Below the pieces are notes generated by a model. It worked only from the letters and a program-made list of their open reading frames with translations, did no database searches and was not told the DNA's origin. From Escherichia coli (GTDB taxonomy: Bacteria > Pseudomonadota > Gammaproteobacteria > Enterobacterales > Enterobacteriaceae): a stretch of 64,000 nucleotides of DNA. Position 1 is the stretch's first letter; every line of letters starts with the position of its first letter. The position numbers and the translations under genes were made by a program. The stretch lies in NCBI RefSeq assembly GCF_045037415.1, contig NZ_CP173438.1. One strand, given 5' to 3'. Positions 59,861 to 60,944 of this stretch are shown here, one piece after another.

Positions 59861-60944
59861 GTCGTGATGTGAACTGACTCAGGAACCTATCAGATTGAGA
59901 GTTACCGTTCTACTATGAGGACCGAATCCTTATATAAAACACTGAGGTAACTCTCATGCTTCATCGTGACAATCTCGCCAGCAAATTCTAAGCTGACTTG
60001 CTCAATCTGGCTGATGAATGTGCTATGCATACACAGATAAACTACAGATGAAATACCACTCAGCTTAAGAATTACGCCGCTAATGTTCCTGGCTATGGTT
60101 ACCTGTTCATTCCCGCTCACGGTTAGCATATACGAAAAGGGTTCTTGTAACGAGTACAAAAATAAGTCAGACCAAAACCACATGGAGCTTTAAACACGAT
60201 TCGTATAATTTATTAGCAGTGATTTATTTTTACTCTTCTTTAATTAATCATCATGCTTAAATATTTTTTAGCACAAGATTATCGCTTCGCTAACATTTTA
60301 GTTTACATTAATTTTCAATTGATAATAAAAAGTTGTTAATAAGTTTTTTGCGGAAAATAAAAAGTGTTGGAATACTCTCCATCAAATGAATGCAAAATAA
60401 ACAAATTGAGATATACAAAAAGTAAAAATCATTTAAATGAATATTTTAAATTTATGAGCAGAACCCATTAACAATGATTTACTCACGACCAGAAAAGTAA
60501 AGAACACCTTGCAATAATATGTATTTATAAATTCATATCATTGATATTAAACTAATCTTACTTTCTACCCTCCAAATTTATGCATCAAAAAAAACAAAAG
60601 TAAAATCAATTAGATACACAACAAGACGATCTCACAGGAAATGATGTTAAATATCTCAAAACTAATAAAAATCACTAAAACATTAGACGTAATACACATC
60701 CCACACGACCTGTCACTCATAGTTTTAATATTTATTTTTTCACATCATAGTAGATAAAAATACGCATTAAAAATGACTTGTAGAAAAGCTGCACAATAAA
60801 TAGTTCATATTTAATCTGTTGCGTAGAACTACTATTCAAAAAATCTTATTAATGAGATAATGAGATTACATCGATAACGTTCTGATTGCAGGCATACTTA
60901 TCTGGGTGTGCCTCTCTTTTTTTTACAACTGTACACGGTGGCGT

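What the first reader, a model, noticed from the sequence alone, without database searches (positions are those of the whole stretch)
59861..60944. AT-rich, gene-poor junction between betA and the recombinase: likely boundary of horizontally acquired DNA
About 1.1 kb with no convincing ORF; composition drops sharply to very AT-rich sequence from about 60180 to 60900, unlike the flanking core genes. Such tracts are typical of acquired, H-NS-silenced DNA and of long regulatory regions upstream of fim-like recombinases. A perfect 10-bp inverted repeat (GAGAGTTACC at 59897-59906 and GGTAACTCTC at 59946-59955) lies 37 bp after the betA stop and may mark a terminator or an insertion scar. In the K-12 reference as I recall it, betA is followed by ykg genes rather than this module.
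Basis: partly seen in the sequence, partly recalled or inferred. Interest (0 to 1): 0.5.

Follow-up and report, generated by a model that had tools for sequence, protein, structure and literature searches.

The report
Left edge of E. coli PAI-X

Summary
Window 59861-60944 lies between the betA stop codon and the ipbA/fimX/hbiF start codon. It has no credible gene and contains the lowest-GC 700 bp of the whole 64-kb window (26% against 52%).

Comparison with 5,426 complete E. coli genomes shows a clean presence/absence polymorphism:
- About 1,890 genomes carry this stretch.
- 3,241 genomes have a 212-bp betA-ykgH spacer instead.

The left breakpoint is at 59964/59965. The inserted block is 5,989 bp and is the published PAI-X (fimX, hyxR, hyxA, hyxB). 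So only 59965-60944 belongs to the island.

The 11-bp inverted repeat lies in the core flank, 8 bp before the breakpoint, and is also present at the empty site. It is therefore not an insertion scar. It has no U-tract, so it is not a canonical terminator.

The island has no tRNA, no island-mobilising integrase and no long flanking repeats. The flanking repeat is 2 bp, or 6 bp (ATATCC) in one allele. Insertion versus early acquisition with later deletion stays unresolved.

Details apparently not described before:
- A conserved promoter-proximal block ends in a strong terminator-like hairpin 22 nt before the fimX start codon.
- The distal leader is very divergent, at the top of a betT-to-betA divergence ramp.

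H-NS binding could not be tested. Overall this is a known feature of low interest.

The parts
58190..59860 (+). betA (choline dehydrogenase), core gene flanking the island on the left
   Evidence: RefSeq annotation of the near-identical locus L001; ORF
59861..59964 (.). Core betA 3' flank, present in island-bearing and island-less genomes alike
   Evidence: 4,906 of 5,426 genomes match query positions 1-104. The empty site in L003 aligns to 1-104 and then jumps to the far end of the island
59896..59956 (+). Conserved hairpin: 11-bp perfect inverted repeat with a 39-nt loop that forms an inner stem. Probably the 3' stem-loop of the bet mRNA. It has no U-tract and is not an insertion scar
   Evidence: The arms are identical at the empty sites L003 and L016 and in the L002, L004 and L007 alleles. 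No terminator call at the empty site
59965..59965 (.). Left junction of PAI-X, first island base. There is a 2-bp AT ambiguity, so the breakpoint lies between 59962/59963 and 59964/59965. The right junction lies outside the window, at L001 15093/15094
   Evidence: BLAST of the 212-bp empty site against the occupied spacer: 1-104 matches 1-104 and 103-212 matches 6094-6203, giving an island of 5,989 bp; junction sequences
59965..60184 (-). Island-specific, moderately AT-rich (42% GC) non-coding segment. It carries most of a 93-aa orphan ORF (59902-60183, minus strand) that runs across the junction. Read as non-coding DNA or a gene remnant
   Evidence: The L004 allele class has 96 extra bp here
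60185..60905 (.). AT-rich tract (26% GC), single copy per genome. Upstream region of fimX
   Evidence: No paralogue in E. coli genomes or plasmids
60160..60310 (.). Distal block conserved between leader alleles (about 90-100% in 50-bp windows)
60411..60660 (.). Highly divergent core of the leader: about 26-33% substitutions plus indels between allele classes, collinear and not inverted
60760..60944 (+). Promoter-proximal block conserved in all alleles (about 94-100%). Proposed fimX promoter and 5' leader
60853..60861 (+). Best sigma-70 candidate: extended -10 TGaGATAAT (hexamer at 60856-60861; -35-like TTCAAA at 60835). Prediction only
60890..60923 (+). Intrinsic-terminator-like hairpin (10 pairs, loop 4) followed by T8, ending 22 nt before the fimX ATG
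   Evidence: -12.9 kcal/mol, z = -4.6, 0 of 200 shuffles as stable. Conserved in all alleles. An unrelated hairpin plus T-run sits at the same position in the divergent module L010
60945..61508 (+). ipbA = fimX = hbiF, tyrosine-type DNA invertase, 187 aa, intact
61507..61812 (.). hyxS invertible promoter element between fimX and hyxR (33-nt imperfect inverted repeats at 61507-61539 and 61780-61812)
   Evidence: literature PMC6458436, PMC11294581, PMC3789825
61838..62632 (+). hyxR, LuxR-family regulator
62786..63547 (+). hyxA
63589..64000 (+). hyxB/upaB autotransporter, 5' part (runs off the window)
   Evidence: coordinates transferred from L001

Best explanation
The interval is the left end of PAI-X, a 5,989-bp strain-variable islet (fimX/ipbA/hbiF, the hyxS switch, hyxR, hyxA, hyxB) that sits between betA and ykgH in roughly 35% of E. 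coli.

It has two parts.
- 59861-59964 is core DNA: the betA 3' flank with a conserved stem-loop.
- 59965-60944 is island DNA. It consists of about 220 bp of non-coding, possibly gene-remnant sequence, followed by about 720 bp at 26% GC that serves as the upstream region of fimX.

Shown here:
- the breakpoints;
- the presence/absence polymorphism;
- the composition;
- the single-copy status;
- the lack of credible coding capacity;
- the pattern of conservation.

Inferred, not shown:
- The last 185 bp (60760-60944), conserved in all alleles, carry the fimX promoter (extended -10 at 60853-60861).
- They also carry a leader whose strong hairpin plus U8 limits or insulates transcription entering fimX. 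This would keep recombinase dosage, and hence switching of fimS and hyxS, low and independent of the osmotically induced betIBA operon upstream.
- The AT-rich distal part is the kind of DNA that H-NS coats.

The islet lacks any signature of site-specific integration. It most likely arrived or was lost by illegitimate or microhomology-mediated recombination and now spreads within the species by homologous recombination in the flanks.
For: Identity and boundaries.
- RefSeq annotation of a locus identical across the interval reads betA, ipbA ('also known as HbiF and FimX'), hyxR, hyxA, hyxB, ykgH.
- Island-less genomes have betA-ykgH 212 bp apart.
- Breakpoints come from BLAST of the empty site against the occupied site and the junction sequences.

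Frequency. 1,879-1,898 genomes carry the leader and 3,241 have the empty site.

Literature. PAI-X consists of fimX and hyxRAB, has a conserved location and was found in 24 of 50 genomes (PMC3789825). The genomic region 'ykgH..betA' is listed as PAI-X (PMC12928451).

Composition. The leader is 26% GC. The island genes are 42-49% GC and the bet genes 55-57%.

The module is a cassette.
- A divergent copy (FimX 80%, HyxR 54%, HyxA 42%, HyxB barrel 87% amino-acid identity) lies next to alsS/budA in other assemblies labelled E. coli.
- The Salmonella STM0716 locus lies next to pxpA.
- In both, similarity to the window starts at the recombinase start codon, so the 980-bp leader is specific to this site.

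Leader anatomy.
- Conserved blocks and a divergent core.
- A promoter candidate.
- The hairpin plus T8, and an analogous hairpin in L010.

No switch here. There are no hyxS repeat copies in the leader, and a genome-wide inversion screen with overexpressed FimX found only fimS and hyxS (PMC6458436).
Against: - No transcription start, termination or H-NS binding data were available, so every regulatory statement is prediction.
- The default promoter scan found no plus-strand promoter in the leader. The extended -10 candidate came only from a relaxed scan.
- The Salmonella homologue has no convincing hairpin at the equivalent position, so the positional conservation is two cases out of three.
- The H-NS high-affinity motif (at most 1 mismatch) is absent from the interval.
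- The direction of the indel is unresolved: no outgroup genome could be retrieved.
Confidence: 0.85

Rival explanations
1. The islet is old. It was present at this site before the E. coli phylogroups diverged. The 'empty' K-12-type site is a deletion product formed through the short repeat ATATCC, so the junction is a deletion scar in other strains rather than a recent insertion boundary in this one. This is compatible with an earlier horizontal origin.
For: - Every island-bearing genome examined has it at the same site, with three deeply diverged leader alleles: 984 genomes at >=95% identity to the window, 884 at about 86-87%, and 86 of the L004 type.
- The L004-type allele has ATATCC at both ends of the island, and the empty site has one copy.
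- O157:H7 and strain 41 carry decayed copies: ipbA, hyxR and hyxB pseudogenes.
- Empty sites occur on two different flank haplotypes, L003 and L016, with the identical junction.
- No island-mobilising (P4-type) integrase, no tRNA and no long direct repeats.
Against: - The island genes are far less diverged between phylogroups (dS 0.02-0.06) than betA next door (dS 0.245). This points to recent exchange of the gene block rather than long vertical residence.
- Composition is foreign.
- The literature reports the island as exclusive to E. coli (PMC3789825).
- A 6-bp repeat noticed after the fact in one allele is weak evidence.
Confidence: 0.35
2. The conserved 165-185 nt just upstream of fimX is a functional RNA element in its own right. 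It would be either a promoter-proximal transcription attenuator that gates FimX synthesis or a small RNA gene ending at the hairpin plus U8.
For: - The block is 94-100% conserved next to a segment with about 26-33% substitutions.
- Extended -10 candidate about 30 nt before the hairpin.
- Strong hairpin plus U8: z = -4.6, 0 of 200 shuffles as stable.
- The whole block folds better than every shuffle, z = -2.8.
- An unrelated but equally strong hairpin plus T-run lies 25 nt before the recombinase start in the divergent module L010.
- A similar site lies about 85 nt before the fimE start in K-12.
Against: - No Rfam family matches.
- Too little variation in the block to test covariation. One change strengthens a pair and one breaks a pair.
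- No obvious alternative antiterminator structure; I did not look for one systematically.
- The hairpin could simply stop read-through from upstream.
- Salmonella lacks the feature.
Confidence: 0.25
3. The interval encodes a small protein: the 93-aa minus-strand ORF at 59902-60183, or the 44-aa 'hypothetical protein' that PGAP calls in the 87% allele.
For: - The 93-aa frame is open in the window, L002 and L007 alleles.
- It has been called as a hypothetical protein in many E. coli assemblies.
- Mild excess of third-position changes in the closer pairs, 3/5/10.
Against: - The ORF crosses the island junction, so its last 20 codons are core hairpin DNA.
- It is interrupted in the L004 allele.
- No periodicity in the divergent comparisons, 12/11/12.
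- No Pfam or NCBIfam match, and no homologue outside E. coli even with a full HMMER scan of 1.8 billion proteins.
- RefSeq does not annotate it in L001.
- The 44-aa ORF lies in the divergent core and is frameshifted in strain 41.
Confidence: 0.04
4. The AT-rich tract is another invertible, phase-variable element acted on by FimX.
For: It lies next to a Fim-type invertase, is AT-rich like fimS and hyxS, and contains many short imperfect inverted repeats.
Against: - The hyxS repeat core TTCAAAATGTCAG (at most 2 mismatches) occurs only at hyxS.
- All six sampled alleles from different genomes are collinear, none inverted.
- The SVRE screen found that FimX inverts only fimS and hyxS in UTI89 (PMC6458436).
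Confidence: 0.02

Closest known systems
PAI-X of uropathogenic E. coli UTI89, EC958 and CFT073 (fimX/ipbA/hbiF-hyxR-hyxA-hyxB/upaB); Hannan 2008, Bateman and Seed 2012, Bateman 2013 and Phan 2013, as cited in PMC3789825 and PMC7545054
   Same: Same genes, same order and same chromosomal site between betA and ykgH. The window is nearly identical (2 differences in 13 kb) to a RefSeq locus annotated with these names. This is the same object.
   Different: Nothing in kind. In the papers I could read, I found no description of the exact breakpoints, the leader allele classes or the hairpin in front of fimX.
nanC-fimB and fimB-fimE intergenic regions of the E. coli fim locus
   Same: Long, AT-rich, gene-free DNA upstream of a Fim-type tyrosine invertase: 1,455 bp at 36% GC and 477 bp at 27% GC, against 980 bp at 31% GC here. 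There is a terminator-like hairpin about 85 nt upstream of fimE.
   Different: No sequence similarity (best E = 0.17). NanR, NagC and IHF sites were not looked for. The regulators of fimX are unknown to me.
Salmonella STM0716-STM0718 / T1-antigen phase-variation locus (PMC11294581)
   Same: The recombinase is 72% identical to FimX, followed by an invertible promoter and a HyxA-like gene.
   Different: Different chromosomal site (after pxpA) and different cargo (polysaccharide genes). The upstream spacer is 514 bp at 36% GC, unrelated in sequence and without a convincing hairpin.
Classical tRNA-associated pathogenicity islands (for example PAI-CFT073-aspV, HPI)
   Same: Strain-variable, compositionally atypical and enriched in extraintestinal pathogens (PMC7545054).
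   Different: Only 6 kb. Not next to a tRNA. No P4-type integrase and no direct-repeat att sites; the flanking repeat is 2 bp or 6 bp. It is better called an islet.

Membership tests
PAI-X (fimX-hyxRAB islet) | Gene content and order: fimX/ipbA, hyxR, hyxA, hyxB | tested here: met
   RefSeq annotation of L001, near-identical to the window. ORFs of 187, 264 and 253 aa in the window. FimX is 99-100% identical to database IpbA proteins.
PAI-X (fimX-hyxRAB islet) | Chromosomal site between betA and ykgH | tested here: met
   PMC12928451 lists 'GR 4 ykgH..betA = PAI-X'.
Genomic island (general) | Presence/absence polymorphism with a defined empty site | tested here: met
   3,241 genomes have the empty site and about 1,890 are occupied. 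Breakpoints at 59964/59965 and L001 15093/15094.
Genomic island (general) | Composition different from the flanking core | tested here: met
   Leader 26-31% GC, island genes 42-49%, bet genes 55-57%, window mean 52%. Note that ykgH on the other side is itself 37% GC.
Classical integrative pathogenicity island | tRNA or other att site, island-mobilising integrase, flanking direct repeats of about 15 bp or more | tested here: not met
   The flanking genes are betA and ykgH, no flanking repeat longer than 6 bp was found, and the only recombinase is a Fim-type invertase. A dedicated tRNA scan was not run.
Rho-independent terminator (for the 11-bp inverted repeat after betA) | GC-rich stem with a short loop, immediately followed by a U-tract | tested here: not met
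   The stem is real, but the loop is 39 nt and the stem is followed by TGCTTCAT with no U-run. Neither terminator scan reports it.
Insertion scar or terminal repeat of the island (for the same inverted repeat) | Present only when the island is present, or split by the insertion | tested here: not met
   Both arms are intact and adjacent at the empty sites L003 and L016. The junction is 8 bp downstream of the repeat.
Rho-independent terminator (for the hairpin at 60890-60923) | Stable stem, short loop, U-tract | tested here: met
   10 pairs, loop of 4, then T8; -12.9 kcal/mol, z = -4.6. Actual termination was not tested.
H-NS-silenced xenogeneic DNA | AT content well above the genome average | tested here: met
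H-NS-silenced xenogeneic DNA | H-NS occupancy and derepression in an hns mutant | not testable with these tools
   No ChIP or expression data were found. The high-affinity motif TCGATAAATT (at most 1 mismatch) has no site in 59861-60944.
Fim-type invertible switch | Pair of inverted repeats recognised by the invertase, flanking about 250-320 bp, with both orientations seen | tested here: not met
   No hyxS-type repeat in the leader. All alleles are collinear. SVRE found only fimS and hyxS (PMC6458436).
Rfam small RNA or cis-regulatory families | Covariance-model match | tested here: not met
   0 matches at E <= 1 in 59500-62000.

The most novel reading that the evidence does not exclude
The conserved block 60760-60944 is a dedicated control element for a phase-variation recombinase. 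It would combine an extended -10 promoter with an intrinsic terminator placed about 22 nt before the fimX start codon, acting as an attenuator or as a short RNA. An unrelated hairpin plus T-run sits at the same position in a distant PAI-X-like module.

In addition, the divergence peak would mark an old regulatory-allele or presence/absence polymorphism maintained by selection at this site. The peak runs from dS 0.07 in betT through 0.245 in betA to about 26-33% substitutions in the distal leader, then drops to 0.03 in fimX.
Probability: 0.2. Interest if true: 0.4.

Novelty: already known. Interest (0 to 1): 0.15.

Why it matters
The finding confirms that a reader working from sequence alone can locate an island edge from composition. 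The island itself has been known since 2008, and its site between betA and ykgH is published, so nothing changes for the field.

Three details add modest value.
- The base-exact breakpoints show that the repeat after betA is core DNA.
- The 980-bp leader is specific to this site. It is not part of the fimX-hyxRAB cassette found elsewhere.
- The anatomy of the leader gives a concrete hypothesis for how FimX dosage, and so type 1 pilus and hyxR switching in uropathogens, is kept low. The relevant features are the conserved proximal block and the terminator-like hairpin directly in front of fimX.

If the hairpin proved to be a regulated attenuator, it would interest people working on phase variation.

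Tried and rejected
1. Outgroup synteny, to decide insertion versus deletion.
- The single genome-contig scan, with YkgH as query, returned only two tiny contaminant contigs filed under Nocardioides and Amycolatopsis.
- Look-ups of divergent YkgH and IpbA proteins led to error-ridden assemblies or MAGs.
- Cluster listings named only E. coli and Shigella.
- The question remains unresolved.

2. The minus-strand ORF as a gene remnant.
- I guessed a STAS-like fragment. Pfam, NCBIfam, a word-indexed search and a full HMMER search gave no support.
- The one intriguing hit, P0216 (CitMHS N-terminus fused to this ORF's C-terminus), sits on a 3.8-kb metagenome contig. Only its last 256 bp match E. coli; the sequence read just upstream of the match looks visibly GC-rich.
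- I read it as an assembly chimera.

3. Plasmid copies of the leader. The three PLSDB hits are chromosomes mislabelled as plasmids, at 4.9, 4.8 and 1.2 Mb.

4. Paralogues of the AT-rich tract elsewhere in E. coli: none in distant-mode BLAST. Similarity to the nanC-fimB or fimB-fimE spacers: none.

5. A second FimX switch in the leader: rejected.

6. H-NS nucleation motif: no site in the interval. This does not exclude H-NS binding.

7. Rfam: nothing.

8. Bateman et al. 2013 (PMC3749053), the paper most likely to define the PAI-X limits, is not held.
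Full report
**What is in the sequence**

The interval 59861-60944 runs from the base after the betA stop codon to the base before the ATG of a 187-aa Fim-type tyrosine invertase.
- GC falls from 0.55-0.63 in betB/betA to 0.235-0.295 between 60200 and 60900.
- GC of 60185-60905 is 0.262. The twelve lowest-GC 700-bp windows of the whole 64-kb window all lie here, against a window mean of 0.518.
- The reported inverted repeat is real and 11 bp long (59896-59906 and 59946-59956).
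- Such a repeat appears in 3.7% of shuffles of the region. The 96-nt stretch folds at -27.5 kcal/mol, z = -3.5.
- The longest ORF is 93 aa on the minus strand (59902-60183).
- Rfam finds nothing at E <= 1.

**What it is**

A megablast of the interval against 5,426 complete E. coli genomes finds the whole stretch in 1,879 genomes. In most of the others only the first 104 bases match.

A RefSeq locus identical across the interval (L001) differs from window 50861-64000 at only two positions. It is annotated betT, betI, betB, betA, ipbA ('also known as HbiF and FimX'), hyxR, hyxA, hyxB, ykgH. Genomes with only the 104-base match have betA and ykgH 212 bp apart.

BLAST of that 212-bp spacer against the occupied spacer gave two matches:
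- 1-104 against 1-104;
- 103-212 against 6094-6203.

The inserted block is therefore 5,989 bp. Its left junction is at window 59964/59965 and the overlap at the junction is 2 bp (AT).

A reciprocal search with the empty site finds it contiguous in 3,241 genomes. Some of the remaining genomes carry other rearrangements, for example an IS1-mediated deletion from lacZ to ykgH.

The block is the published PAI-X:
- a 2026 comparative paper lists the region 'ykgH..betA' as PAI-X (PMC12928451);
- fimX is enriched in uropathogens (PMC7545054, PMC6458436).

**The inverted repeat**

It lies in the 104 bp of core DNA, 8 bp before the junction. Both arms are intact and adjacent at two different empty-site haplotypes (L003, L016) and in all island alleles, while the loop differs.
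- It cannot be an insertion scar or an island terminal repeat.
- It has a 39-nt loop and no U-tract, and neither terminator scan reports it.
- It occurs once per genome in nearly all genomes (median 1, highest 2).
- My reading, which is inference, is a 3' stem-loop of the betIBA transcript.

**Island-specific DNA, 59965-60944**

*59965-60184.* This segment is 42% GC and carries most of the 93-aa ORF. That ORF runs across the junction, so its last 20 codons are the core hairpin. Further points against it being a gene:
- It is interrupted in one allele class.
- It has no family match.
- It has no homologue outside E. coli, either in a word-indexed search or in a full HMMER scan of 1.8 billion representatives.
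- Substitutions between alleles show no significant codon periodicity: 12/11/12, and 3/5/10 for the closer pair.

I treat it as non-coding, possibly a remnant.

*The AT-rich tract that follows.* It is single copy, with no paralogue in E. coli chromosomes or plasmids.

*Leader allele classes across genomes*:

| Class | Genomes |
|---|---|
| >=95% identical to the window | 984 |
| about 86-87% identical | 884 |
| 90-95% identical | 23 |
| rare class with 96 extra bp (L004 type) | 86 |

*Conservation along the leader.* Six aligned alleles show the following:
- A conserved distal block at 60160-60310.
- A very divergent but collinear core at 60411-60660. Window versus the O157:H7 allele: 173 identical columns, 65 substituted, 15 gapped.
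- A proximal block at 60760-60944 that is 94-100% conserved.

**How the leader probably works (inference)**

- A relaxed scan places the best sigma-70 candidate in the conserved proximal block: an extended -10, TGaGATAAT, at 60853-60861. The default scan found none.
- It is followed by a 10-pair hairpin and T8 at 60890-60923: -12.9 kcal/mol, z = -4.6, no shuffle as stable.
- The hairpin ends 22 nt before the start codon and is specific to the plus strand.
- It would either stop transcription arriving from upstream (betIBA is 1 kb away and has no canonical terminator) or attenuate transcripts from the proximal promoter. Either effect would keep invertase dosage low.

A divergent fimX-hyxRAB-like module found in a few assemblies labelled E. 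coli lies next to alsS/budA. Its amino-acid identities to the window proteins are:

| Protein | Identity |
|---|---|
| FimX | 80% |
| HyxR | 54% |
| HyxA | 42% |
| HyxB barrel | 87% |

This module has an unrelated but even stronger hairpin plus T-run ending 25 nt before its recombinase start codon. K-12 has a similar site about 85 nt before fimE. The Salmonella STM0716 locus does not.

In both the divergent module and Salmonella, similarity to the window begins at the recombinase start codon. The 980-bp leader therefore belongs to this site, not to the cassette.

The architecture resembles the nanC-fimB spacer (1,455 bp, 36% GC) and the fimB-fimE spacer (477 bp, 27% GC), but without sequence similarity.

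The tract is not a further invertible element:
- there are no hyxS repeat cores in it;
- no allele is inverted;
- a genome-wide screen found that FimX inverts only fimS and hyxS (PMC6458436).

H-NS binding is plausible from composition but untested. The high-affinity motif (at most 1 mismatch) is absent from the interval.

**Acquired or lost?**

The islet is not next to a tRNA, encodes no island-mobilising integrase and has no long flanking repeats. In the rare L004-type allele, ATATCC stands at both ends and once at the empty site. That would fit either a 6-bp target duplication or a microhomology deletion.

Synonymous divergence between a B2 locus (L001) and O157:H7 (L002) behaves as follows:

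| Segment | Divergence |
|---|---|
| betT | dS 0.07 |
| betI | dS 0.11 |
| betB | dS 0.155 |
| betA | dS 0.245 |
| distal leader core | about 27% substitutions |
| ipbA | dS 0.03 |
| hyxR | dS 0.06 |
| hyxA | dS 0.02 |

So the betA side and the distal leader carry old alleles. The gene block has a recent common ancestor across phylogroups, with a transition near 60760.

This fits exchange of the gene block within the species by homologous recombination, on top of an old polymorphism at the site. It does not tell which state is ancestral. My attempt to fetch outgroup genomes failed.

Foreign composition, restriction to E. coli and related cassettes at other loci support a horizontal origin at some point.

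**Comparison with the known, and verdict**

This is PAI-X. The membership features I could test are met:
- gene content;
- chromosomal site;
- presence/absence polymorphism;
- atypical composition.

The features of a classical integrative island are not met, so 'islet' is the better word.

Two of its side suggestions fare less well:
- The idea that the inverted repeat is a scar is refuted.
- The idea that it is a terminator is not supported.

Novelty is 'already known' and interest is low. The one thread that could repay an experiment is the conserved promoter-proximal block with its terminator directly in front of fimX.

Noticed in passing
window 57336 (betB): The window has one extra A in betB relative to the otherwise near-identical locus L001. 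It splits betB into two ORFs (56700-57422 and 57376-58176). This is either a real betB pseudogene in this strain or a sequencing error.
   Followed up: partly
window 61507-61539 and 61780-61812: 33-nt imperfect inverted repeats (82% complementary) flank 240 bp between fimX and hyxR. This is the known hyxS invertible promoter. The right arm is itself part of a 19-nt near-palindrome (61776-61814).
   Followed up: partly
window 54900-60760, compared with L002 (O157:H7): Synonymous divergence climbs steadily towards the island edge: betT 0.07, betI 0.11, betB 0.155, betA 0.245, distal leader about 27% substitutions. It then collapses to 0.02-0.06 in ipbA, hyxR and hyxA. A divergence peak centred on an island boundary resembles the pattern next to loci under diversifying selection. 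It remains unexplained.
   Followed up: partly
L010-L012 (GenBank assemblies labelled E. coli), locus positions 8001-13317: A second, divergent fimX-hyxR-hyxA-hyxB-like module (80, 54, 42 and 87% amino-acid identity) lies directly after budR-budA-alsS. It is absent from all 5,426 complete RefSeq genomes. Its downstream flank (ompC-like porin, DUF6404) matches 148.7-kb E. coli plasmids at 98.6%, so the module may be plasmid-borne.
   Followed up: partly
L021 (strain AZ 191), equivalent to window 60166-60174: An IS1 is inserted in the leader with a 9-bp target duplication, exactly at the transition into the AT-rich tract, about 770 bp upstream of fimX.
   Followed up: yes
L017 (strain 21220): IS1 joins the end of lacZ directly to ykgH. 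This deletes lacY through the bet operon together with the whole PAI-X site.
   Followed up: no
L020 (K-12) 3423-3452: A terminator-like hairpin plus T-run lies about 85 nt upstream of the fimE start, 363 nt after the fimB stop. Its position is reminiscent of the hairpin in front of fimX.
   Followed up: no
L001 15204-15872 (ykgH, beyond the window end): ykgH, the 'core' gene on the right of the island, is itself 37% GC. Homologues were found only in Escherichia and Shigella, so the whole betA-ykgG interval may be a patchwork of acquired DNA.
   Followed up: no
L002 and L007 (O157:H7 and strain 41): The island is decaying in these lineages. ipbA is frameshifted or has an internal stop, hyxR has an internal stop or is truncated, and hyxA and hyxB are partly deleted. 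hyxB also varies in length between intact copies (2,292-2,463 bp).
   Followed up: no
L015 (ENA metagenome contig, 3,808 bp): The contig reads as GC-rich oxaloacetate decarboxylase / CitMHS genes joined to 256 bp of the E. coli betA 3' end and island edge. It is almost certainly an assembly chimera, and it produced a misleading protein hit (P0216).
   Followed up: yes
L008, L009: Fragments of E. coli ykgH (96-100% identical) appear as 256-bp and 272-bp contigs in assemblies labelled Nocardioides malaquae and Amycolatopsis orientalis. This is contamination in public genomes.
   Followed up: no
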